This document shows, one piece after another, positions 2,530 through 60,322 of a DNA stretch of 64,000 nt. The DNA comes from Octopus vulgaris (Eukaryota). The position numbers and the translations under genes were made by a program. The stretch covers positions 15,872,001 through 15,936,000 of the forward strand of contig OX597829.1 in NCBI GenBank assembly GCA_951406725.2. The letters are read 5' to 3'. Each line of letters opens with the position of its first letter. Position 1 is the stretch's first letter. The notes beneath the pieces are model-generated. The model saw only the letters and a program-made list of their open reading frames with translations. It did not search any database and was not told the origin of the DNA.

Positions 2530-2915
2530 TGCCGGGCGAAATGCTTAGCCGTATTTCGTCGGCCGTTACGTTCTGAGTTCAAATTCCGCCGAGGTCGACT
2601 TCGCTTTCATCCTTTCGGGGTCGATAAATTAAGTGGCAGTTACGCACTGGGATCGATATAATCTACTTAATCCGTCTGTCTGTCCTTGTTTGTCCTCTCT
2701 GTGTTTAGCACATTGTGGGTAGTAAAGAAATAGGCTTTCTGTCTGCCGTTACGTTCTGAGTTCAAATTCCGCCGAGGTCGATTTTGCCTTTCATCCTTTT
2801 GGGGTCGATTAAATAAGTAGCAGTTACGCACTGGGGTCGATATAATCGATTTAATCCTTTTGTCTGTCCTTGTCTGTCCCCTCTATGTTTAGCCCCTTGT
2901 GGGTAGTAAAGAAAT
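2530..2915 (+). mobile_element. Family B SINE, dimeric
   Basis: Two tandem Meta-domain bodies; the second lacks the 5' half of the head. Confidence 0.88.
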
Positions 2916-3459
2916 ATATATATGTGTGCGTGCGTGTGCGAGCATGTGTGTGTGTATTTGGGCGCGCGCGTGTCCGTGTGCGTGTTATGCGTATATGTGT
3001 GTGTGCACGTATGTGCGTGTGCATATGTGTGCGTATGTATATGTGTGCCTGTGTGTGTGCGCGTGTGTAGTGTGTGTGTGCGTATGTATAGTGTGTGTGT
3101 GTCTGTGGTATGTGTGTTTGTGTATGCATATGCGTAGTGTGTCTGTATGTGTAGTGTGTGTGCATGCGTGTGTGCATGCGTGTGTGTGTATGCATGCATG
3201 CGTGTGTGTATGTGCATGCATGTGTGTGTGTGTGGGGGGCTGTGTGTGTAAGCGTGTTTGCAAGGGTGCTGTATATATGTGCTGAATGTTATGTATTTGT
3301 TCGGAGCTGATGATTCATTCATCGCATCTTCTAGGTTCTTGTAATGTTTGAACCTACAGACAACAAGATCACTTATTTTTTTTTGTCTTACATAAAAAGA
3401 TAATAGGCAGTGCGTTGACTTTTGAACTAGACAGATAGTATTTGTAATTGTACTTGTGG

Positions 3460-15314: not shown

Positions 15315-18300
15315 CTACAGGATCATGCTCAAAATGGTTTCGTCACTCGCACGCACCATCTTTGCAACATTCACCCATCTTTTTTTTAATCTTTCGCGAG
15401 ACAAAACTTCCCTCTCCATTCTCACCTTCCTTTTCAAGTGGTACTTGAAAAAGTTGATGAGCGATTGGCCAGAGAGGTAAGTGTTTGTCTCTAATCCTTT
15501 CGCTCGGCTCCACCACACACATTCTTTCACCATGGCCACCAGTACGATGAAAACTGCCTTGTCTTCCCGGTTGAGGGAAGGGGGCGGAGCAATTCTCACA
15601 ATAGACTCGGCCGATAGGCGGATTCGTCCCACACGTGACAGCAGCCGTTCGGCATAAGCCCACAGGTCTGAAATGGTTGGACATTGCACGAGTGCGTGCA
15701 GAACGGTTTCGTCGCTCTGACCGCATCTCGGGCAAGTCGGTCCAGTGTGTCTGGAACCGTGTCTGTAGAGCTTATCCCGAACAGGTAATGCTTCTCGATA
15801 GCACTGCCAGGCCAGGGATCTTTGGTGGTTGTTCATAGGTCCCGGCCCGAAAGTTATCCTGAACAGGCGGGTCAGGTGTTCCTCGTCGACGCCCAGACTC
15901 TGCCCGAGTTCGTCGTCGCACCTCCCCTCCACTAATCCTCTATAGAATGCCTTTGTTGTGATGGAGTTGCACAAGTTCGATCCCGGACGGCAGAGTTGCT
16001 TGAGAGCAACGCGACACTCGCGGTGCCATTCGCCTAGCCTCGGTCTCTGCTTGATCCATGACTGTAGTTCGTCCAAGGAGACGAGCTGCGGGAAAGCGCG
16101 CCGCACAAAAGGCGACCACACCTGTTCACCGTTGTCTATGAAGCGCCGGAGATGTCGCAGTCTCAGCGCATGTCTGCGCATCATCAACCACGGCATGCCC
16201 AGCCCTCCATTTAGCGGGTGTTGACAGCAAATGGATCGCCTAACCATCGGAACGTTTCCCTTCCACAAGAAGCGGAAGAGTATACATTCCAGTTTGGTGA
16301 TGGTAGGGTCGGGACAAGGCACGACGGTCAGACGATATACTCGATGACGGATGCGATGTACGCGTTCGCCACCTCCGCCCGACCTTTTAGGGATAGATTT
16401 CTCTCAGCCCATTTCTGGGTGAGAGTAGCCACACTAGGCGTTATCTCGCCCCAGTTCTTCTCCATTTGGAGGTCCGGACCGAACCAGACCCCGAGCAATT
16501 TAACCGGTCCGTCCGTCCAGCGTCCCACGATGGAGACGCTGTTGGACGGCATGGGCCTGCCGAGCCGCAAGCCCACTGACTTTTCCCGGTTAATTTTTGC
16601 TCCCGTTATCGCTTCGTATTCTTTTAGTGTCCCGCCGACCAGCTCTATGTGCTCGTAGCTCGACACTATGACGGTGACGTCATCCGCGTATGCAGACACG
16701 CTCCTCCCGCATCCCAGCTCTCGTGGCATGCCCCTCAGCGTCGCCAGTTTCCGCAGTAGTGGCTCAAGAGTCAATACATACAGCAGCGATGAGAGGGGGC
16801 ATCCCTGACGAACCGAACGCATGATGTTAAAAGGTCTGGATAGATGACCATTTACGCGAACTACTGAGCGGATGCCGCTGTATAAGGCAGCGATCCAACC
16901 GCGGAAAACTGGACCGAAACCAGCCGCTTTAAGGACAGCCTCGAAGTAGTGATGGTCTACCCTATCGAAGGCTTTTGATTGATCCAAATTGATCAGCGCC
17001 CCACCCATGCCAGGATTCTTAACTACCCTGTCTATGATGTAGCGCATCAGATGGAGGTTGTCATGAATACTTCTACCCGGCACGGCGCATGTTTGCGCCT
17101 TGTCGATTAGTTTCTTGATGACAAGCGCCAACCTCTCGGCTAACACCTTGGCCAAAATTTTCAAATCTGCGTTGAGCAGAGTGATGGGCCTGAAATTATC
17201 TATGACGTCCCCCTTGTTTGGGTCTTTCTTAATCAGTGCCACTGATCCTCGCTTTACAAAAGCAGGAATACTCCCGTTTTTCTGCCAGTTGCAGTAGACA
17301 GCTGCCAAGACGCTTCCAAACAAGTCTGGCATATGAAAATAAAGTTCGTAGGGCAGACCATCCAAGCCTGGTGACTTGTCTATCGCGCAGCCTACCATCG
17401 CATCCTGTACGTCCGCAGCTGTGATAGGCCTTTCACAAGACTCCACCTCTTTTGCTGAGAGTCGTGGCAAGGCATGCAGGTAGGCACTAAAGTCCACTCT
17501 GCGTTCTGACCCACCACTTGTCCCAAACAGTTGGGTGAAGTGTTGTTGAAAAGCTCCACACATCCTTTTAGGCTCGAGCAATTCGCGCCCCTGTTCATCT
17601 ATAAGAGACTTGATGGTGGCTCTGTTGCCTCGTTGCGTCTCCACCACTCGGGCCTCTTGGGCGGCTCCAACTCCTTCGTTCATCAGAGCACGCATCCTAG
17701 CTCTGACAACGCATCCCTCGTGTTTGGCGTTGAGGTGTTGGTCGAGGACCAATCTCGCCGCCAGCACGTTGGACGCGATGCCAGTTCTAAGTGCCTCTTC
17801 TAAAGCCTTAACTAATTCTCCCTCTATTCTATTTCGGTCTAATGCTAGTGCTTTACTGTATCTGACTGATTCTGCTTTAATTGCTTTTTTTAGAGCATAC
17901 CACCATCTGTTGTTGATGATGGTACCCGTCAAAGCTCCCTTAACTAATGTTCTGATCCGGTCCCTGTAAACCTGTCGTGCTGTAAAAGACGCGTTCAGTT
18001 TCCAGTAACCAGGACCCTGCCTATGTGTCTTATCTAAGTCAAGTGTACAAGTCACAAACTTGTGATCTGTGTAACTGTCTATATGAAATTGTGGACAACC
18101 TACGCTATTTTTATCTATTGTCCTACAGAATACTCTATCTAAGTATGATCTGGACGACCCGATGCGGTTACTCCATGTCCACATTGGCACATTCGGGTGG
18201 TCCAGTCGGTACCTGTCAGACAGTTGGAAACGTCTGAGCAGGTCTTTGAGGCATTTGCATCCCCTTCTATTGCTATCTCTGCCCACGTAGTCTAGATGCG

Positions 18301-18733
18301 TGTCCAGGGTGGCATTCCAATCCCCCACTAAAAGTAAAGGACGAGACGTTCCCATGAAAGACTCTAGACGTCGAAAGAAATCTGGTCGGCCTGTTAAGGA
18401 CGGAGCATAAACTGCTATCAGTCGAAAAGCACACTCATTGCTGCCATCGACATCCAAGACGACCAGCCTACCCTCCGGGTCTAGGAAAATTGCTCTTACT
18501 TTGAGATCTAGACTCTTCCGGAGAAGCACCGCGGTGCCACCTCCGCCCATTCTCGGAGAAAAATAAATGTTAAAATGTGTACCGAAACTGTGCTGGAGTG
18601 CCCGCAAGCTGTGGAGTCTGGTCTCACTGATGGCTATGATATTCAGATTTAGTGACTTGATGTCATTTAACAGGTAGCCTTGTTTCCAAGGCGACCCCAA
18701 GCCACGTACATTTATACTGCCTATTCTGAGCAT
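15315..18733 (-). pseudogene. Tx1 ORF2 (APE endonuclease, reverse transcriptase, zf-RVT) with one frameshift
   Basis: Motifs SINVRGL, ISETRLH, AVYAP, GDWNA, YLDR, TDHK (APE); SPGLDGLP, NFRPITLLNADLKIL, LDQSKAFDRV, QGCPLS, YADD (RT); CPRCGQSDETVLHALVQC. A 2-bp insertion near 16337 (IEYIV* versus IDYCLTVVPCP in copy 3) splits it into ORFs 16328-18733 and 15315-16322. Confidence 0.95.
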
Positions 18734-18802
18734 GTTCCGATAAAAAATTGTGTTTTACACACGAAAAGAAAGTGCAAAAATGAAAGAGAGAGAGAGAAAA
18801 GG

Positions 18803-20890
18803 TTACTTGTTGTTCGAAAGTCCTTTGTTTTTCACCTCACAATCTTCTTCTATGAGGCTTTTGTATAGTTTTTTTGATGAATACTTTTGAAATCTCCCTA
18901 CTGCATCAGGGTAAAGAGATTTCAGGGTGCTGTATGTGTTCTGTGTTACGTGTATTATTTTAATGTGTTGTGGTGGTGTTGTGCGTGGGTGGTTACTTGT
19001 TTTTATGTCGTTTTCAGTTATGTTAGTGTTTGACCTAATGTGTTCCATTAGGTCGTGGTTGTTTGTGTTTATGGCTGTCAACATTGTTGTGGGGTTTGAT
19101 GATGGTGTGTTTGTGTTGATGTGTTTGTTTTCTGTGGATGTTTTTGTTTCGGGAGTGGTGAATCTTCCTGCTTTGTTTGTTATCTTTTCTTTTCTTTTTT
19201 TTCTCTTTTTCTTCTCCCCCCTGTGGCTATTTGCCAATCTTCTGTGTCTTCTTCGTCTAATGACAAATCAGAAGAATCAGAGCTTGGAAGAGGGAAAATA
19301 TTGGGGTCTATTGTAGACTGTGTTGATTTTGTTGTTGGTGTTGGTTGGTGAGCGTTAGGTTGTGGTGTATGCGGTTTTGGAGGTGGAGTGTGGGTATTTT
19401 GTGTTTGAGTGATTGTAGGTATTGTTGTGTTGTTTGGAGTGTCAATTTTGTGGGGATTTGGAGTAGTAATTGTTTCTTCATTTTCGATGAGTGTCTTTTT
19501 GGCAGATCTCTTTGGTTTGGGAGTTGGTTTATTCTTGGTTGTTGTTGTTGGTGATGTTGCTTCTGTTCTTGGTGCAGTTGGTGTGGTTGTTTGGTTGGTG
19601 AGGTTTGTTTTTTGTTGATTTTCTGTGATTAGTCCTGTTCGTGCAAAACGTGGTGTGGGTAGTAAACCTGGTTTATTTGTTTTTTCCGTTGTTTTTTCGT
19701 GCTGTTTTCTTGCGGCAGATTTGCAGTCTTTTTTTAGGTGTTGTTCACTGCCGCATATGTAGCAACGTGGCCTTCTGCCATCGACGACCACATACAACTT
19801 GTGGTCTTCTGATACACATATCTGGGTGGGTATTTTCTTTATGTCTTCTTGGTTTATATGTAGTAGAAATTCTACATTTTTTCCCACCCAGTTTTTGTGC
19901 TCCGTGACCGTGGTTTCCAAAATTGTGAAATCTTTCATTTTCACACATAAGGCCTTTACTAACCAGAGATTGTTAGCTATTTTTGGGACGTTGTTTAAAG
20001 TGATCTTAGTCACTTTCTGTCCACGATAGCTTGGTATTAATGTCAGTTCATCTGAATGAAGAGTTAGCGTTGAGAAACGTTTTGCTAACTCTTCAGTGTG
20101 GAAAACCACTTGTATGTGTGCGAACTTGCTCCACCAGGTCACATAGTCTTTGTAGTTCCAGATGGGTTTCAAGCATTTTTTATTTTGCTTGTGTTAGCCT
20201 TCTCTGGACTTTTTGTTTTCTTATTAATTATTTTATAAATAATTGTTCTTTTTTTTCATCTTCTAATATTTCTTCTGGTATGTTTATTTTTACTATACCA
20301 TCTACTTCCGTTATTGTAATGTTCGTGTCTGTTATTTGTTGTGCAGTAAAATATACTGTTGTCTTTTTTTCTTTAATCGCCTCGGCGAAATTTGTTGTTG
20401 TTTTGTTATTGTTGTTGCTGGTGGTGATGTTGTTGTTGGCTGCAGTTGGTAAATTTGGTGTATTTGGTTTGATTGTGCAAGTAGAAAGGGGTGGAAAATT
20501 ACTTGCATAATTTATTTCTGTATTCGAGCAGCTTTTGTCAATTTGTTTGGTGGTCACAGTCTTTTGTTTATTCACTTCAGTTCTTGTTGTTGGAGTAAAA
20601 CAGGTCTGAACGGAATTGTTGTTGTTGTTTTTGTTGTTTTTGTTGTTGGTGGTAGTGTCAGTGGCAGAAGAGACAGCCGTGGCAGCAGATGTCGAAATGG
20701 TGGCGCAATTTTAATTTTTGTTGTCATTGTTATTTTTGTTGTTGTTGGTAGTTGAGGTAGTGGATGAGGTGGCGGCGGTGGTGGTGGTGGTGGTGAAGGC
20801 GGTGGTGGTAACAGTAGTAGTCTCTATGTTGTTCTTGCTAGTGGTGGTGTTGGTGACAGGGCTGTTACTACAAGTAGTTGTAGCGTTCAT
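18803..20890 (-). pseudogene. Tx1 ORF1 (gag-like nucleic-acid-binding protein), fragmented
   Basis: Starts MNATTTCSNS at ATG 20890; ORF pieces 20228-20575, 19180-20172 and 18803-19237; knuckle RPRCYICGSEQHLKKDC; collinear with ORF1 of copy 3. Confidence 0.85.
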
Positions 20891-41045: not shown

Positions 41046-41102
41046 GCATGTAGATAAATAAAGAAATGGAGTTTAAACGCAGGTGTTATTCAAATTCTTT
41101 TA

Positions 41103-41197
41103 CTTTCGACATATGTTTCGAAGACAAATAATGTTGTCCAAAAGGAACAGAAGGAATAAAATGGTATAAAACAATGCAATCTTCTCATCAGGGAAAG
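41103..41197 (-). ncRNA. Minimal type I hammerhead ribozyme, inverted twin of 41753-41840
   Basis: Reverse complement reads CTTTCC-CTGATGA-GAAGA...TCTTC-GAAA-CATATG-TC-GAAAG. Confidence 0.7.
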
Positions 41198-41752
41198 AAA
41201 GTAACCAAACACATCCATAAGACATTTTAACAGAATGTAATGACCGCTTATATGATGAAGGAATCGCTAGCAAGTTTTTTTTAAAAAACCGTTAGTTGAT
41301 ACAACATCAAGGTAGTTTATATAAAGAGAAGGTGGAGAAATAAAAAAATTAGCAGAAAACTAATAGCGGAGAGACATAGAGCGAAAGGTGAATTAGAATA
41401 AAGCTTAAAGGCATGGAAGTAGATATATTTAGTGGAAATGAAATGTAAGAAAGAGTCAAAAGTCAAATTTTATAGAATACCTTTAGTTCCTATAAGTGAT
41501 TTCCACTATTCTGTAACATTCGACCTTTGACTGTTTCTTACAATTCACTCCTACTAAATATATCTACTTCCATGCCTTTAAGTTTTATTTTAATTCACCT
41601 ATCGCTCTATATCGCTCCGCTATTAGTTTTCTGTAAATTTCTTTCTTTCTCCTCCTTCTCTTTCTATAAACTACCTTGATTTTCTATCTACTAACGGTTT
41701 TTTTTTCTAACTTTTCTGTTGAAAAGTCTTATTGATATGTTTGGTTTCTTTC

Positions 41753-41840
41753 TTTCTCTGATGAGAAGATTGCATTCTTTTACACCATTTTATTCATTCT
41801 GGAATAATCTCAATGTTGTCTTCGAAACATATGTCGGAAG
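41753..41840 (+). ncRNA. Minimal type I hammerhead ribozyme (PLE type, palindromic stem III)
   Basis: TTTCT-CTGATGA-GAAGA...TCTTC-GAAA-CATATG-TC-GGAAG. Confidence 0.8.
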
Positions 41841-42040
41841 TAAAAGAATTTGAATAACACCTGCGTTTAACTCCATTTATTTATTTAACTATATTATGCA
41901 AAACATTTCAACAAAACCTGGAGTTTCTAGCCTTATAAGTAGGTTGTTACATCCTTGGTACTTGTGTGAATTTTTGCTACCCTGGTAACTGTTTATTTTT
42001 TCCGTGTTATTTGTAAACACTGGAAAAAACACATATACAT

Positions 42041-42097
<57 letters not shown>

Positions 42098-42102
<5 letters not shown>

Positions 42103-42473
42103 TATATAGAGGGTACTATTATTCATAGGTTCCGCACGCTAGGAGGGACTTTTGCAGTCAAAACTACTATCTATTTTTATAGATATGTAAAGATAAACAT
42201 TCGTACATGCTGCGGCGAATTCTACGGTTGGTTGTCGGGTATGTGATGTTGTGTTTTTTCTTATATGTCTTGAGTTCGTTGCACTGAAGAGCATAGAATG
42301 CATATTCTGCATTGATTGCGAAATCACAGGTGATATGTAACTAAATTCTGTTTTTAAATGACTCGCTTTGAAGCTTTGCATTCGGTACAATTTGTTTATT
42401 TTAATAGTTTTGACTGCAAAAGTCCCTCCTAGCGTGCGGTACCTATGAATAATAGTACCCTCTATATAATATA
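42098..42473 (+). mobile_element. Non-coding element with 69-bp inverted termini enclosing a hammerhead
   Basis: 42098-42166 and 42405-42473 are reverse complements with one mismatch; adjacent to (TA)n. Confidence 0.85.
42278..42341 (+). ncRNA. Type I hammerhead ribozyme with intact core
   Basis: Stem I GTTGCA/TGTAAC; core CTGAAGA (42284-42290); stem II GCA/TGC; GAAA (42320-42323); stem III TCAC-AG-GTGA; AUA triplet with predicted cleavage after 42335. Confidence 0.85.
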
Positions 42474-42581
42474 AATAAATATTTTCAAAGTTGAAAAAAT
42501 TTACAGATTTTTTCTCTTACGAGGTTTCTCATGCTAACTACTGATAATTTCTTATAAAGATTTTATCCTTATTTTTAAATT

Positions 42582-42628
<47 letters not shown>

Positions 42629-42940: not shown

Positions 42941-44240
42941 ATTGTTCTTTATTAGCCACACAGGGCTGCACACAGACGGGACATATTTCAAAGTAGAGCT
43001 TTTCTTTATGTGGAGAAAAAAAAGGTGGGGTAGGTTTTCGATCAAAAGGAATCGTAAAAGGGAAAGAAAAAAAGAAAAAAGGAAAGAAAAGAAGAAAAAA
43101 AGAAAAAGAAAAAAGAAAAAAACAATCAATAGGGATCGTGTATCACAGAAATGTCATGATGTAAACTGTAAAGGGGGAAGCAAATAGGGTTTATCCGTGG
43201 AAAGAAAAGCCTACGGAAAAGACCATGGTAACCTCGGTCAATAATGTCACATGTTAACACATTTATTTGCAAGTAAGTAATTCTCTGTTTTAAATTTTTC
43301 CAGGTTCATAGGACTATGCTCAAGGTGGCTTTGTCATTCATACGTGCCATCCTTGCTACATTCAATCATCTTTTTTTTAAACATTCGCTAGACAAAACTT
43401 GCCTCTCTACTCTCACTTTCCTTTTCAAGTGATACTTGAAGAAGTTGATGAGAGATTGACCAGAGAGGAAAGTGTTTGTCTCCATTCCTTTCAGACACGT
43501 CCACCAGATACATTCTTTCGCCATAGCCACAAGAATGATAAAAATAGCTCTTCCTGCCCGTTTGAGGGAAGGAGGTGTGACAATATTGATAAACCGACTC
43601 GTCCCACACGTGACAGCAGTCGTTCGACATAAGGTCGGAAATTGTTGGACACTGCATGAGTGCGTGCAGAACGGTTTCGTCGCTCTGACTACATCTCGGG
43701 CAGGTCGGCCCCGTGTTTCTCGAGCTATGTCTGTAGAGTTCATCCCGAACGGGTAGCGCTTCACGGTAGCACTGCCAGGCCAGGGATCTCTGGAAGTTGT
43801 CCATGGACCCTGACCCGAAAGTCGTTTCAAACAGGCGGGTCAGGTATTCCTCATCGACGAACAGGTTCGCCCCGAGCTCGTGTCGTACCTCCCCTCCACT
43901 TATCCCCTATAGAATGGTTTGGTTGTGCTGAAGTCACGCAAGGTCGACCCGGGACGGCATAGTTGCTTGAGAACAACGCGACACTCGCGGTGCCATTCGC
44001 CCTTCCTCGGCCTCTTTTTGATCTACGACTGCAGTTTGGTCATGGAGACGAGCTGCGGGAAAGCGTGCCTCACAAACGGCGACCAGACCTGTTCACCGTC
44101 GTCTACGTAGAGCCGGAGATGTCGCAGTCTCAGCGCGTGTCTGCGCATCATCAACCACGGCATGCCCAGTCCTCCTTTTAACGGGAGTTGACAGCAAATG
44201 GATCGCCTGAGCATCGGGACGCATCCTTTCCACAAGAAAC

Positions 44241-44241
<1 letters not shown>
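42941..44241 (-). mobile_element. 5'-truncated Tx1-clade LINE, copy 2 (ORF2 C-terminus plus 3' UTR)
   Basis: ORFs 44023-44235 ([31 protein letters not shown]) and 43388-43804 (CPRCSQSDETVLHALMQC) are homologous to copy 1; the truncation junction abuts (GATA)n at 44241. Confidence 0.93.
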
Positions 44242-44334
<93 letters not shown>

Positions 44335-44345
44335 TAGATAGATAT

Positions 44346-44410
<65 letters not shown>

Positions 44411-44430
44411 TAGATAGATAGATATATATG

Positions 44431-44517
<87 letters not shown>

Positions 44518-44797
44518 CTTTTTATTGTAGCCACACAGGGCTAAACACAGAATAAAAATGGACGAAATACAATGTAGAATTTTTTCTTTTTGAGGTGGGA
44601 TGGGTGGGGCACAAAAAAAAACGTTTGATCAATAGGGATCTGTGGGTTGTGTGGTGTGTAAAAAAGCAATATATATATATAAAGTTCACAGTTTAGGTGT
44701 AGCCTTGGAAAGAAAAACCTACAAAAAAGACCAAGGTCACCTCAGACAGAAAATGAACACATGAGTAAGTCGCCTTACTTCTCGTTGTCCCTTTTGG

Positions 44798-47700
44798 TTA
44801 CAGATTTATGCTTAAAATAGTGTCGTCTTTCATACTGACCATTTTTGCCACTTTTACCCACTTTTTATTAAAACATTCGTTCGACAAAGCCTCCTCTCTA
44901 TTCTCATCCTCCTTTTCAAGTGGTACTTGAAAAAGTTGACGAGAGACTGACCAGAGAGGAAGGTGTTTCTTTGCAGTCCTTTCAAACGCGTCCACCACAC
45001 ACATTCTTTCGCCATAGCCATCAGCGTAACGAAAACCGTTTTTCCTTCCCGTTTAAAGGAAGGTGGTGGAACAATATCCACGATAGACTCGGCCGATATG
45101 CAGGCCCGACCTACACGTGACAACAGCTGTTCGACGAAGGTCCACAGCTCTAAAATATCTGGACACTGTACGAGTGCGTGCAGAACGGTTTCGTCGCTCT
45201 GACCGCATCTCCGGCAGGTCGGTACGGTGATGGTTTTCGAACCGTGCCTGTAGCTCTTCTCTCGAACAGGTAGTGCGTCTCGATAGCACTGCCAAGCCAG
45301 GGATTTCTGGAAGTTATCCATAGGCCCCGGCCCGAACGTCGTCCTGAACAGGCGGGTTAGGAATTTCTCGTCGACGCCCAGGTTTGCCCCGAGTGTGTCG
45401 TCGGACCTCCCCTCCACTAGTCCTCTATAGAACGCTTTAGTCATTTGGAAGTTGCACAAGTTTGACCCCGGTCGGCAGAGCTGCTGTAGAGCTTGGCGAC
45501 ACTCTCGGTGCCAATCGCCCAGTTTCGGTCTCTTCTTGATCCACGTTTGCAGTTCGGTCAGTGAGACGAGCTGCGGGAAGGCGCGCCTCACAAACGGCGC
45601 CCACACCTGTTCACCGTCGTCGATGAAGTTCCAGAGATGCCGCAGTCTCAGCGCATGCTTGCGCATCATCAACCACGGCATGCCCAGTCCTCCATTCAAC
45701 GGATGTTGACAGCAAATTGACTTCCTCACCATCGGAACGCCACCCTTCCACAGGAAGCGGAAGAGTATGCGTTCCAGTTTGGTGATGGTGGCGTCGGGAC
45801 AAGGTACGACGGTCAGGCAGTAATCGATGACGGATGCGATGTACGTGTTCGCCACCTCCGCCCGACCTTTTAGAGATAGCTTTCTCTCGGCCCATGTTTG
45901 ACTGAGAGCAACCACTCTACTCATGATCTCGTCCCAGATCTTATCCATTTGGAGGTCCGGACTGAACCAGACCCCGAGCAATTTAACCGGTCCGTCCGTC
46001 CAGCGTCCCACTACTGAGCCGCAGTCGGACGGCATGGGCTTGCTTCTCCAGGTTCCGAGTAGCAAACCCACTGACTTTTCCGGGTTAATCTTCGCTCCCG
46101 TCACCGTTTCGTATTTTCTTAGTGTCTCGCCTATCATCTGGATGTGTTTGTCGCTCGACACTATGACGGTGACATCGTCGCCAGCTTCCGTAGTAGCGGC
46201 TCGAGAGTCAATACATACAGAAGCGCCGACAGGGGACACCTCTGACGGACCGAACGCGTGATGTCAAACGGTTTCGACAGGTGACCGTTCACCCGAATCA
46301 CCGATCGGATGCCGCTATACAAGGCAGCGATCCAACCGCGGAAGACGGGACCGAAGCCAGCCGCCCTGAGGACGGCCGCCAAGTACCGATGGTCGACCCT
46401 ATCGAAGGCTTTAGACTGATCCAAATTTATCAGCTCCCCACCCATGCCAGGATCCTTAACTACCCTGTCCACAATGTAGCGCATCAGATGTAGCGCATGT
46501 TTGCGCCCTGTCGACCAGTTTACCAATGACAAGCGCCAACCTCTCGGCTATTACTTTGGCCAAAATTTTCAAATCTGCGTTTAGCAGAGTGATGGGCCTG
46601 AAATTATCTATAAAATTCCCCTTGTTTGGGTCTTTCTTCAGCAGCGTCACTGCACCTCGGCTCACGAAACCGGGGATTCTCCCGTTTTGTTGCCAGTTGC
46701 AGTAGACTGATGCCAAGAGGTCGCCAAACAAGTCTGGCATTTGACAATACAGCTCGTAGGGTAAACCATCCAATCCAGGCGACCTATCCCTCGCACAGCC
46801 CGCCATCGCATCCCGCATGTTAGCGGCTGTAATGGGACTTTCACAACACTCCGCTTCTCTTGCCGAGAGCCGCGGCAGGTCGGTCAGGTAGGCACTGAAA
46901 TCCATCCCGCGTTCCGACCCACCACTCGCACCAAACAGTCGAGCAAAGTGCTGTTGAAAGGCCTCACACATCCCTTCGGGTTCGAGTAAACTGCATCCCT
47001 GTTGATCTATTAGAGACCGAATGGTGGCTCTGTTGCCACGCTGCCTCTCTGCTACCCGGGCCTCTCGCGCAGCTTCGATCCCTTCGTTCCTTAAGGCACG
47101 CATTTTAGCTCTGACGTCGCAACCTTCGTGCTTGGCGTTGAGGTGTTGGTCGAGGGCCATCCTCGCAGCCAGCACGTTGGTTGCGCTGCCAGTGGTAAGT
47201 ACCTCTTCTAGTTTCTTAACCAGGTCTCCCTCTACTCTATTTTGATCTATCGCTAATTCCTTGCTAAACCTAATTGATTCCGATTTTATTGCCATTTTCA
47301 GGGCGTACCACCAGCGGTTGTTAACGACGGCTCCCGTCAGCGCCCTCTTAATTAACTCGCTAATCCGGTTCCTGTAAACCTGTCGCGCTAAGAGCGACGT
47401 GCTCAGTTTCCAGTAACCGGGACCCTGTCTATGTGTCTTATCTAAGTCGAGCGTACACGTAACAAATTTGTGATCTGTGTAGCTGACTATTTTAAATTGT
47501 GGACATCCTACACTATCCCTATCCGCTGTCCTGCATAGTATTCTATCTAGATAAGATCTCGACGATCCGACGCGGTTTGTCCAAGTCCACGTTGGCACGT
47601 TCGGATGGTCGAATCGGAACCTGTCAGACAAATGGAAACGTCTGAGTAGGTATTTGAGGAACTTGCACCCCCTTCTATTCCTATCCATTCCCACATAATC

Positions 47701-48150
47701 TAGATGCGTGTCCAAGGTAGCGTTCCAATCCCCTACTAACAGTAAAGGTCTAGACGTACCCAGGAAAACCTCTAGACGTCTGAAGAAATCCGCCCGACCC
47801 GTTAAGGACGGTGCATAAACTGCCATCAGACGGAATGCACACCCATTTCTGCCATCCACGTCCAAGACAACCAGCCTACCCTCCGGGTCTAGGAATATAG
47901 TTGTTACTTTTACATTTAGACTCTTTCGAAAAAGCACCGCGGTACCTCCACCACCCATGTTCGGCAGACAGGGAGAAAAATAAATGTCGAATTGATCGCC
48001 AAACATGGACGCGAGGGCCCGCGGCTTGCTGGGTCTGGTTTCACTGCTAGCTACTATATCCACGTTCAGTGACTTAATGTCATTTAGAAGGTAACCTTGC
48101 CTCCAAGCCGACGCCAAGCCACGCGCATTCACACAACCTAATTTAAGCAT
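44798..48150 (-). pseudogene. Tx1 ORF2 of copy 3, disrupted by deletions and frameshifts
   Basis: ORF pieces 46456-48150 (APE and RT N-terminus), 46161-46532 (LDQSKAFDRV) and 44854-46239 (zf-RVT). The segment leading into YADD is deleted near 46178. Confidence 0.93.
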
Positions 48151-48224
48151 AATTGACGTTTACGAAAATTGTGTTTCACACACTACATTGGAAGAGACAA
48201 GAGGCAAGAGGGCAGGTCACTTAC

Positions 48225-49987
48225 TCATTTCGAAAGTTTCATTTTTTTCTTCTTCCTTTGTAGTGTCTTTGATGAGGCGTTTGTATAGTTTTTGGAGAGG
48301 TATCGTTGAAACCCGCCTACCGCATTTGGAAATATTGTTTTCAGTGTATGGTGTTGTGTTTGTGTAATATGTACAATTCTTATGTGTTTCGGTGGTGTGG
48401 TGCGCGGATGAGTGTTTGTCTTAAAGTCATCTTCACAGATGTCCGTGTTGGATGCAATGTAATCCATGAATTTTTTATTGTCTGTGTTTATTGCAGTTAG
48501 TTGTGTGTGTGGTTTTGCGGGTTCATTGATTTTTGATTGTCTAGGGGGATGCTGTCCGGAGTTAAATATCTCCCTGCTTTACTTCCTTGTTTGGTGGGCT
48601 TTTTTTATCTTTTCCTTTTACCCCCTGTGGCTATTTGCCATTCCGTCGAACTTTCGTCGTCCGACGAATCAGAAGGTGTAAAGGCAAAGTATTTGCGTTA
48701 ATATGTATGCTTGTAGAAATTGTTGATGTTTTGTGCGGTGTTTGTGTTGTTGTGGTGTTAGGGGTAGAATTTGTCTTCTCGTCACTGATTTCTGTCTTTT
48801 TAATTGTCGTCCTCGGTGTTGGTGTTGGTCTATCTTTTGGTTCAGTATGTTGAATTGGTTGCGACGTCAACGGTGATTGTGTTGGTATTGTTTCTTTTCT
48901 TGGTGATGTTGTTGGGGTTTGTTTGCTGGTTTGTTGTTTTTCTTGGCATTATTCCATAATTGAGTGTGTTGGTGTTGGTGTTGGTGTTGGCAACAAGGGT
49001 TTTTTATTTGTTTTCTGATTTGTTCTTTCTTGTTTTTTTTGTGCCAGAGCGCACTTGGCAATTAAATGTTCTGGGCTGCCACAGTTGTAGCACCTAGGCT
49101 TTTTGCCTTCTGCTACAACATATAGGCTTTGCCCATTTTCTAAATGGATCCTATCGGGTAGGTTCTCGATAGAGGCCCCCTCAATCTGGATGGTCACTAC
49201 TATTGTTTTACCACCCCAATTGTCGTTTTTGTACACGGCGGTTTCTAATATATTTATCTTTTTCAAATGGTAACAGATTGCCTCTGTTATCCATTTGTTA
49301 GGTATCTCGGGAGGTAAATTTTTAATGCTAATTCTACTCACTCTCTGGTCTTTGTAATATGGTACTATGATGATTTCATCATTTTGCAAAAACTCCGTAG
49401 AGTGAGCTTTTGCCACTTCCTGGTTAGGGAAGCGGACCACCACTGTATTAAACTGGGGACCCCAGTTTATATATTCTTTTTTTTTCATTATGCATTTTAA
49501 ACACTTTTCTATGTCCGTTTTTGTAATCTATTTTGTTTTTTGTTTTTTCTCATAATTTTATATATAATTGTCTTATTTTCTATTTGTTCCTTTATGTGTT
49601 GAGGTGTATGCAGCACTAAATCTTGCCCTTGGGTTGTAAAGAGTGCTCTCGTTTCTATTAACTCTCATTCGTAAATTTTACTATTTCTTTTTTCTGACGC
49701 AGAGTGTCAGCGAAATTTACTGGTGTTGTTGATTCTTTTATATTAAGATCTTCACTATTAGATAGTAAGATATTTATTTCATTTTTATTGTTGTTCTTCT
49801 TGTTGTTGTTGTTTTTGTTAATAGTATTCGCGTGAGTTTCATTTTTATCATTTATGTTGGTCGTGGTAGTGGTGGAGGTGGTGGTGGTAGTAGTAGTAGT
49901 CTCGTTGTTGTTGTTGTTGTTAGTGGTGGTGGTGGTGGTGGTGGTGGTGGCGACAGAGCTGTTACCGCAAGTGGTTGCAGCGTTCAC
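48225..49987 (-). pseudogene. Tx1 ORF1 of copy 3, fragmented
   Basis: Begins NAATTCGNSS (GTG in place of the ATG of copy 1); knuckle KPRCYNCGSPEHLIAKC; C-terminal HPRTTPPKHIRIVHITQ matches HPRTTPPQHIKIIHVTQ of copy 1. Confidence 0.85.
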
Positions 49988-59909: not shown

Positions 59910-60322
59910 GGCGGCGAGCTGGCAGAAACGTTAGCACGCCGGGCGAAATGCTTAGCGGTATTTTGTCTGCCGTAACGTTCTGGGTTCAAATTCCACCGAG
60001 GTCGATTTTGCCTTTCATCCTTTCGGGGTCGATAAATTAAGTACCAGTTACGCACTGGAGTCAAGGTAATAGATTTAACCCGTTTGTCTGTCCTTGTTTG
60101 TCCTCTCTATGTTTAGCCCCTTGTGGGTAGTAAAGAAATAGGTATTTCGTCTGCCGTTACGTTCTGAGTTCAAATTCCGCCGAGGTCGACTTTGCCTTTC
60201 ATCCTTTCGGGGTCGATAAATTAAGTGCCAGTTACGCACTGCGGTGGATATAATCGACTTAATCCGTTTGTCTGTCCTTGTTTGTCCCCTCTATGTTTAG
60301 CCCCTTGTGGGTAATAGAGAAA
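59910..60322 (+). mobile_element. tRNA-derived Meta-domain SINE (family B), dimeric
   Basis: Head GGCGGCGAGCTGGCAGAA, B-box GTTCAAATTCC, Meta-like GCCTTTCATCCTTTCGGGGTCGATAAATTAAGTACCAG; 20-bp TSD AATATAGGCAATTCCTATAT (59885-59904 and 60326-60345). Confidence 0.9.

What the first reader, a model, noticed from the sequence alone, without database searches (positions are those of the whole stretch)
42098..42473. Small non-coding element: intact hammerhead ribozyme between 69-bp inverted termini
Seen: 376-bp unit with inverted ends matching at 68 of 69 bases, beside (TA)n, containing a complete type I hammerhead at 42278-42341 (6-bp stem I, CUGAAGA, stem II with an extra AGAATG/TATTCT hairpin, GAAA, stem III TCAC/GTGA, AUA site). 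No credible ORF. Established: Penelope-like elements and retrozymes carry type I hammerheads, and PLE insertions often have an inverted terminal segment. Inference: a young non-autonomous, ribozyme-processed retroelement that would be misannotated as a MITE.
Basis: partly seen in the sequence, partly recalled or inferred. Interest (0 to 1): 0.8.

Follow-up and report, generated by a model that had tools for sequence, protein, structure and literature searches.

The report
Penelope-type ribozyme insertion mimicking a MITE
This is one cut-short copy of an abundant repeat that carries a predicted self-cutting RNA motif; its matching inverted ends are likely the ordinary footprint of a Penelope-type jumping gene pasting two back-to-back pieces into a TA repeat, so it is a new example of a known kind of element and not a self-contained 376-base unit.

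Summary
Both features are real. The arms match at 68 of 69 bases, and the type I hammerhead passes a strict pattern that none of 100 simulated windows passed. The 376-bp unit is not real as an element. Public contigs show an abundant family that runs about 100 nt beyond the right arm and at least 90 nt (579 nt in one contig) upstream of the inner junction. Other copies share the back-to-back layout with different inner junctions, and many end near 42475-42482 at microsatellites. The insertion is therefore about 42098-42582: a 72-nt inverted piece, a 410-nt forward piece with the ribozyme, and a one-sided tail inside (TA)n. This is the published footprint of Penelope-like elements (PLEs). An unrelated repeat next door has the same layout. 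Variation across copies mostly spares the ribozyme structure, and the motif is predicted to fold as a dimer, poorly as a monomer. No parent ORF, tandem unit, RNA or cleavage was shown. The tail (85-109 nt) is longer than the 30-40 bp in print. Verdict: new member of a known kind.

The parts
42033..42097 (.). (TA)n microsatellite, left flank and likely target
   Evidence: Sequence; tandem repeat 42033-42108
42098..42169 (-). Inverted 72-nt arm: a 5'-truncated second copy equal to 42402-42473, 3' end pointing outwards; its outer edge blends into the (TA)n (up to about 42089)
   Evidence: 70 of 72 complementary; same layout with other inner junctions in other copies
42170..42172 (.). Head-to-head junction, 1-3 unassigned bases
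   Evidence: Arm match ends at 42169; the family match begins at 42173, with other letters before it in contigs of X1, X4, X5, X8, X14
42173..42582 (+). Forward 410-nt piece: 5'-truncated 3' end of a longer, abundant repeat (pLTR-like)
   Evidence: Covered in 4 of 4 runs and 4 of 4; diverged contigs bridge the right arm into 42474-42567
42272..42348 (+). Type I hammerhead motif (core fold 42278-42341; stem I extension to 42272/42348; stem II with 3x3 internal loop and 6-bp inner hairpin; near-palindromic stem III 42323-42334); predicted cut after 42335
   Evidence: Pattern scan and nulls; folds; variation across copies. Cleavage not tested
42402..42482 (+). Segment mirrored in the left arm, ending at end point 1 (about 42473-42482, AT-rich)
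   Evidence: Contigs of other copies stop at 42474-42482; loose ends behind 42481/42482 are microsatellite-like in X5 and X8
42483..42582 (+). One-sided tail of about 85-109 nt, ending at end point 2 (about 42567-42582; exact end not fixed)
   Evidence: High contig depth to 42565, falling over 42566-42585; absent from the left side; lengths
42583..42602 (.). (TA)n, right flank, followed by (AG)n
   Evidence: Sequence

Best explanation
The locus is one insertion of about 485 bp (42098-42582) from an abundant repeat family, made of a 410-nt forward piece with a hammerhead motif and a 72-nt inverted piece set head to head inside a (TA)n run, and it was likely written there by the endonuclease and reverse transcriptase of a Penelope-like element (PLE). 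Shown from sequence and contigs: the layout, the extension of the family beyond both supposed termini, variable inner junctions, and two outer end points about 100 nt apart, both 3' of the ribozyme. Inferred from the PAc in vitro work: the enzyme nicks both strands of AT-rich DNA and starts reverse transcription at two internal sites of the RNA. One strand copied 72 nt from site 1, the other 410 nt from site 2, and the two truncated cDNAs were joined. The inverted repeat and the one-sided tail follow from this. Inferred from folding: the ribozyme would act as a dimer between two copies in a tandem transcript of the parent, and would be weak or inactive in this single copy, which is likely a dead-end product. 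Not resolved: whether the parent is a coding PLE (a (TA)n-targeting, hammerhead-bearing clade such as Hydra or Neptune) or a longer non-coding derivative; I put these at about even odds.
For: Family runs past the right arm: diverged contigs bridge 42462-42473 into the tail (X1 record 4 and X4 record 27, 42376-42535; X3 record 20, 42407-42499; X2 record 15, 42418-42506). Family runs upstream of 42173: the same loose end in X1 (6 contigs), X4 (3), X14, X5 and X8 (1 each); 90, 91 and 579 nt long in the last three. Other copies have the same polarity with other junctions: arm to 42391 joined to 42193 (X5, 87 letters on the short side) and arm to about 42405 joined to 42251 (X1, X4). End point 1: contigs ending at 42474-42482, with microsatellite-like loose ends in X5 and X8. 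An unrelated repeat next door has the same layout with hammerhead cores in both arms and a 138-nt tail. Published PLE structure: inverted 5'-truncated copy, one-sided tail, (TA)n targets, hammerhead in the pLTR (PMC8557442); both-strand nicking and two internal start sites that make the tail (PMC11167929). Ribozyme constraint: of 9 variable places listed within 42278-42341, 0 are in the 11 core positions (P=0.16, not significant alone) and 6 are in the 15 unconstrained ones (P=0.004); 2 more keep stem I pairs. The unconstrained two-copy fold is exactly the double hammerhead.
Against: No coding partner was found or linked: three motifs of this element had 0 matches in the supplement of PMC8557442 (line breaks or cuts in the stored file could hide one). 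The tail is 85-109 nt against 30-40 bp in print. No target-site duplication can be read in (TA)n. Most joints have only 21-35 letters on the short side, where the tool warns of false joints, and only 1 of the 7 left-arm joints of X1 came back as an opposite-strand joint. Depth halves at 42481-42497 in 4 of 4 runs but rises again afterwards, so that dip may come from local indels and does not prove end point 1. A common variant at 42291 (G>A) breaks the first stem II pair unless 42319 changes too, which the tables do not show; 17 and 26 variant rows were not displayed. The energy gained by dimerising (-6.8 kcal/mol) is no more than in shuffles (201 of 300 as good). Fold-back self-priming could make the inversion instead (PMC3846280).
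Confidence: 0.85

Rival explanations
1. A DNA-transposon MITE (Sola2-like or TA-targeting) with about 58-70-bp terminal inverted repeats that captured a hammerhead from a PLE and moves by cut and paste.
For: Near-perfect arms; the arms start with GAG and are flanked by TATA on both sides. Sola2 has AT-rich 4-bp duplications (PMC3627910); GRG/GAG ends of Sola elements are recalled, not from a call.
Against: The family continues about 100 nt beyond the right arm and at least 90 nt upstream of the inner junction; inner junctions differ among copies; this copy's own junction is not among the 15 joints or the 3. In one search the contigs that run over the left end (7, 1, 1, 1) are about matched in number by those with the other upstream sequence (6, 1, 1, 1).
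Confidence: 0.04
2. A fragment of a short tandem retrozyme (about 360-500-nt monomer, circular RNA) like the other families noted in this genome, inserted by PLE machinery. This shares the insertion mechanism with the best explanation and differs in the parent.
For: Canonical-type hammerhead with 6-bp stem I, no ORF, very abundant. Earlier AI notes describe 360- and 485-535-nt hammerhead arrays with two-armed insertions in this genome (leads only). Retrozyme monomers are common (bioRxiv 10.64898/2026.07.22.740005).
Against: A contig 99% identical to this copy (X8 record 25, 2 differences in 177) has 579 nt upstream of 42173 with no joint back into the element, so that copy is not in a tandem of period under about 950 nt (one contig). 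No joint from the tail end back to the start was listed. Sequence look-ups matched none of the noted families.
Confidence: 0.25
3. The inverted arm arose by fold-back self-priming or a template switch during one round of reverse transcription, not by priming on both target strands.
For: Several short joints in other copies are near-palindromic fold-backs around 42381-42421. Palindromes at inverted junctions were read as self-priming in Adineta PLEs (PMC3846280).
Against: This copy's junction joins points 229 nt apart (42402 and 42173) and the X5 copy's 198 nt apart, so neither is a palindrome. PAc cleaves and extends both strands in vitro (PMC11167929).
Confidence: 0.15
4. The hammerhead is a chance match inside an unrelated repeat.
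For: No Rfam hit; the monomer does not fold better than shuffles (z -0.7 to -1.0) and the hammerhead fold is not its lowest-energy fold.
Against: 0 of 100 simulated windows pass the strict patterns; variation avoids the paired and core positions; three diverged loose ends keep the core and re-pair the inner hairpin (read by eye).
Confidence: 0.02

Closest known systems
Endonuclease-bearing Penelope-like elements, especially the (TA)n-targeting Hydra clade (PMC8557442: passages, supplement search, supplement part 2 of 59)
   Same: Inverted 5'-truncated copy at the 5' end, one-sided tail, (TA)n target, sense-strand type I hammerhead near the 3' end (listed about 90-430 nt from the end in Hydra-clade consensuses; 204-304 nt here), short near-palindromic stem III.
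   Different: No RT or GIY-YIG ORF in this copy or linked to it. The tail is 85-109 nt, not 30-40 bp. The motif differs in sequence from the listed Hydra-1_oBim hammerhead. Stem II has a 3x3 loop and a 6-bp inner hairpin.
Poseidon_Ac (PAc) of Anolis (PMC11167929, parts 1-2 of 4 read)
   Same: Both end points lie 3' of the hammerhead on its sense strand; AT-rich target; two start sites explain the tail.
   Different: In PAc the ORF starts in stem II and the start sites lie inside the ORF. Here the ATG in stem II meets a stop after five codons and no ORF follows.
Metazoan non-LTR retrozymes (PMC7229834, passages; bioRxiv 10.64898/2026.07.22.740005, part 1 of 5 and passages)
   Same: Non-coding, low-GC repeat with a canonical type I hammerhead, many copies, presumed PLE-dependent.
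   Different: Defined by short head-to-tail units and circular RNA. This locus has less than one unit, no tandem was seen, and one close relative has 579 nt of other sequence upstream.
PLE hammerheads that need a dimer (PMC4209133, passages)
   Same: Weak stem III with palindromic character and predicted dimer activity; that paper also reports solo motifs from truncated PLEs and pairs on opposite strands 100-700 bp apart, as in the neighbouring repeat.
   Different: This motif has a 6-bp stem I (extendable to 11) and a 4-5-bp stem III, so it is closer to the canonical form than to the minimal one.
MITEs and Sola2 DNA transposons (PMC3627910, passages)
   Same: Looks alike: short, non-coding, near-perfect inverted arms, AT-rich 4-bp flanks.
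   Different: The arms are not the family's ends and the interior junction is not fixed.

Membership tests
Type I hammerhead ribozyme | Core CUGANGA, GAAA, UH at a three-way junction with stems I-III, stem I open | tested here: met
   all core bases and 19 of 19 modelled pairs present
Type I hammerhead ribozyme | Structure kept across copies | tested here: met
   6 of 9 variable places in 15 free positions, none in the core, one stem II exception; some rows hidden; loose ends read by eye
Type I hammerhead ribozyme | Rfam hammerhead model match | tested here: not met
   no hit; the long stem II may be the cause (inference)
Type I hammerhead ribozyme | Self-cleavage | not testable with these tools
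   Needs in vitro transcription; monomer stems I and III have pair probability about 0.01
PLE-type insertion | Inverted 5'-truncated copy head to head with the forward copy, with variable junctions | tested here: met
PLE-type insertion | One-sided 3' tail between two end points | tested here: met
   longer (85-109 nt) than the published 30-40 bp, and end point 2 is not exactly fixed
PLE-type insertion | Hammerhead on the sense strand near the 3' end; AT-rich or (TA)n target | tested here: met
   comparison
Autonomous PLE | RT plus GIY-YIG ORF linked to this terminus | tested here: inconclusive
   None in this copy; upstream letters beyond 30 nt not visible; no genome held; supplement motif search empty
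Non-LTR retrozyme | Head-to-tail units of about 150-500 nt, each with a hammerhead | tested here: inconclusive
   Not at this locus; no go-back joint from the tail end; one close relative argues against; short contigs limit the test
Non-LTR retrozyme | Abundant linear or circular RNA | not testable with these tools
   No holder on record as RNA; only contigs could be laid
MITE / Sola2-type DNA transposon | Terminal inverted repeats mark both ends of the family, with a fixed interior | tested here: not met
   the family continues beyond the arm and the junctions vary
MITE / Sola2-type DNA transposon | Target-site duplication and a matching transposase | tested here: inconclusive
   TATA flanks both arms, but on the right it lies inside the repeat; no transposase library or genome was available

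The most novel reading that the evidence does not exclude
A (TA)n-targeting PLE lineage whose two reverse-transcription start sites lie about 100 nt apart, three times the textbook tail, mass-produces two-armed ribozyme-bearing inserts with near-perfect inverted ends; some of these have been picked up by a DNA transposase and now move as true MITEs carrying a hammerhead, a retroelement-to-DNA-transposon conversion.
Probability: 0.04. Interest if true: 0.7.

Novelty: new member of a known kind. Interest (0 to 1): 0.22.

Why it matters
It is mostly an annotation lesson. Two-armed PLE inserts with a short arm look like MITEs, so inverted-repeat finders would file retroelement products under DNA transposons, in genomes where both classes are being counted (for example the octopus annotation PMC13282606, whose main text has no occurrence of 'ribozyme'). 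Two details are of modest interest to specialists. The tail is about 100 nt here and 138 nt in the neighbour, which gives a test of the two-start-site model of PLE insertion at spacings well beyond 30-40 bp. The extended stem II with a re-paired inner hairpin is a natural hammerhead variant that Rfam models miss.

Tried and rejected
No genome is held for this window, so copy number, tandem arrays and the partner ORF could not be read from an assembly. BLAST within the window found no second copy of the element, the tail or the neighbour. Rfam: no hammerhead hit. Collection scans with two short motifs found nothing: metagenome 0 of 2 scans, prokaryote genomes 0 of 2, viral 0 of 1; this is expected for an animal repeat. 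No RNA holder was listed; runs X5 and X8 are only guessed to be RNA, and I used them for structure, not expression. Summed contig depth (about 5,000-300,000 over most bins in X1 against 20-70 for single contigs) suggests copies in the thousands, but the tool says this is no copy number. The depth dip at 42481-42497 was rejected as proof of an end point. The dimer energy gain was rejected as evidence. The neighbour's right hammerhead did not fold as a hammerhead in unconstrained monomer or dimer folds. The 125-codon minus-strand frame has no Pfam match. Finding and neighbour share no significant similarity (best E 0.09). Sequence look-ups in earlier findings were empty, as was the look-up near this place. 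My first reading, a Sola2-like MITE at 55%, was dropped. Literature searches listed no paper whose title or abstract start describes this family or a hammerhead-bearing MITE; the library lacks most subscription papers and Repbase/Dfam entries, and supplements of the bioRxiv paper could not be seen.

Full report
Observation. The window is a microsatellite-rich animal sequence. Earlier AI notes on the same genome call it octopus; I did not test that. The inverted match is as reported: 68 of 69, and 70 of 72 when extended (42098-42169 with 42402-42473). The hammerhead at 42278-42341 has every core base. It was the only hit in the window under three patterns, against 1, 0 and 0 of 100 simulated windows. 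Allowing a longer loop II found a second plus-strand hit at 41753-41840 and, under the loosest pattern, one minus-strand hit at 46559-46645 that I did not follow; nulls were 6, 1 and 1 of 100. Rfam has no matching model. There is no credible ORF.

Is the ribozyme real? The hammerhead fold of the 64-mer is 1.2 kcal/mol above the lowest-energy fold (-12.1 against -13.3), but in longer contexts stems I and III have pair probabilities near 0.01. Two copies of 42270-42350 folded without constraint give exactly the double hammerhead (-43.2 against -36.4 for two monomers), because stem III is nearly palindromic. The size of that gain is ordinary (201 of 300 shuffles gain as much), so only the shape counts. 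In public contigs, nine places within 42278-42341 are listed as variable. Six fall in the 15 unconstrained positions (P=0.004) and none in the 11 core positions (P=0.16); these include N7 and the cleavage base, which changes A to C. Two keep stem I pairs (G-U to G-C, U-A to U-G). One, 42291 G>A, breaks the first stem II pair unless compensated, which the tables do not show. 17 and 26 rows were hidden. By eye, three loose ends from diverged relatives (X4 before 42315; X8 before 42308 and before 42313) keep the first core box and the 3-nt stem II and 3-nt loop spacing. The two that show both strands of the inner hairpin re-form its 6 pairs with double changes. Three other loose ends at these places (X1, X3, X5) were noisier and do not show this cleanly. 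I conclude that the motif is under selection in the family. Cleavage is untested.

What are the element's limits? Twenty of 24 listed runs hold part of the stretch, in 8 studies; none is on record as RNA. Laying four runs on 42090-42585 placed 1234, 1397, 730 and 1001 contigs, with depth in 30 of 30 bins. Depth is as high beyond the right arm (42498-42565) as inside it, and four diverged contigs bridge the arm's end into that region. So the right arm is not the family's end. On the other side, contigs from five runs (X1, X4, X5, X8, X14) match from 42173 and carry the same different sequence before it: 90 nt in X14, 91 in X5 and 579 in X8. So the left arm is not the family's start either. The insertion is about 42098-42582 (485 bp): 72 nt inverted, 410 nt forward, (TA)n on both sides. 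The right end is not exact. Several contigs leave the window's sequence at 42565-42569, others reach 42582-42585, and the tool skipped the repeat-rich last part of the stretch.

Is the layout shared? Yes, with different junctions. An X5 contig has 87 letters of arm (down to 42391) joined to 42193. A locus seen in X1 and X4 joins the arm at about 42405 to 42251. One search lists 15 joints in all, 10 of them starting in the left arm and landing at places from 42251 to 42543; most have only 21-35 letters on the short side and are weak, and only 1 of 7 such X1 joints reappeared. This copy's own junction is not listed in either call. Many contigs stop at 42474-42482, with microsatellite-like loose ends in X5 and X8, while others run on through the tail. 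That gives two outer end points 85-109 nt apart, 138-147 and 232-247 nt downstream of the predicted cut. Four positions differ from 97.5-99.9% of X1 depth and the arms differ at 2 of 72, so this copy has aged a little.

The neighbour. 41048-41894 is a larger fold-back with arms about 79-88% alike. Both arms carry a hammerhead core with a palindromic 2-bp stem III and a long loop II; the left one has a stem I mismatch. A 138-nt stretch follows on the right only, up to the same (TA)n. It is unrelated in sequence to the finding. I read it as a second insertion of the same type; no runs were laid on it.

Mechanism. PLE insertions are described as 5'-truncated, often with an inverted 5'-truncated copy at the 5' end and a 30-40-bp tail at one end; Naiad and Hydra families prefer (TA)n, and Hydra families carry a sense-strand hammerhead near the 3' end (PMC8557442; passages, supplement search, supplement part 2 of 59). 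Purified PAc protein cuts and extends both strands of AT-rich DNA and starts at two internal RNA sites whose spacing is the tail; ribozyme mutants do not block insertion (PMC11167929, parts 1-2 of 4). Applied here, by inference: nicks on both strands of (TA)n primed two cDNAs, one from end point 1 that stopped after 72 nt and one from end point 2 that stopped after 410 nt, and their 5'-truncated ends were joined. Self-priming is a rival for the inversion (PMC3846280, passages), but this junction is not a palindrome. Metazoan hammerheads with a weak, palindromic stem III are reported to need dimers (PMC4209133, passages; PMC7229834, passages), which fits the folds.

The parent. It is not identified. 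The X8 contig, 175 of 177 identical to this copy, has 579 nt upstream with no joint back into the element. This argues against a short tandem monomer for that copy, but it is one contig and could include flank. Three motifs of the element and one of the neighbour were absent from the supplement of PMC8557442. Earlier AI notes describe several 360-535-nt hammerhead arrays with two-armed insertions in this genome; they shaped my test of end points, but sequence look-ups did not link this family to them. A 2026 preprint argues that animal retrozymes derive from PLE pLTRs (10.64898/2026.07.22.740005; part 1 of 5 and passages; supplements not seen), so the two possible parents lie on one continuum.

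DNA transposon. The arms with TATA flanks resemble Sola2-type ends (4-bp AT-rich duplication, PMC3627910 passages; the GRG terminus is recalled). The defining test fails, because the arms are not the family's ends. Unitig data cannot exclude a small subfamily that moves as a unit, which I keep as the novel case at 4%. I also read passages of PMC6431247 and PMC13282606; neither passage set describes this element.

Verdict. This is an ordinary two-armed PLE-type insertion of a hammerhead-bearing repeat, with a longer tail than usual. New member of a known kind; interest 0.22.

Noticed in passing
window 41048-42032: Second two-armed insertion, unrelated in sequence: arms 41048-41479 and 41507-41894 (about 79-88% alike, with indels), hammerhead cores in both arms (core starts 41758 on +, 41191 on -) with a 53-59-nt loop II and palindromic 2-bp stem III, and a 138-nt one-sided tail up to the (TA)n. 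The arms differ enough to suggest age or two different templates.
   Followed up: partly
window 15315-18754 and 43366-48159 (minus strand): LINE-type retrotransposon frames with AP-endonuclease, RT and zf-RVT Pfam matches; several partial copies in a row in the second region. L1/Tx1 clade is my recalled label, not tested.
   Followed up: partly
window 2554-2916 and 59957-60322: Two-copy 184-bp tandem of a SINE-like repeat at both places; resembles octopus SINEs by recall only.
   Followed up: no
window 46559-46645 (minus strand): Weak hammerhead-pattern hit under the loosest pattern only, inside a LINE frame; probably chance (null 6 of 100).
   Followed up: no
contigs laid on window 42173: The family's 30 letters upstream of 42173 loosely resemble the reverse complement of about 42360-42390 (about 20 of 29 by eye), which hints at an older inverted segment or an RNA stem enclosing the ribozyme in the parent element.
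   Followed up: no
contigs laid on window 42482 and 42375 (table 5c; X3, X4): One locus ends at 42482 and, after 5 AT letters, resumes at 42375: possibly a partial tandem starting right after end point 1; orientation not shown.
   Followed up: no
window 42463-42482: End point 1 coincides with a TATA-like AT-rich stretch; it could be a promoter motif as in Adineta pLTRs or simply pair with the (TA)n target.
   Followed up: no
window 19180-20193 and 48949-49527 (minus strand): Open frames of 337 and 192 codons upstream of the LINE frames, probably their ORF1 proteins.
   Followed up: no
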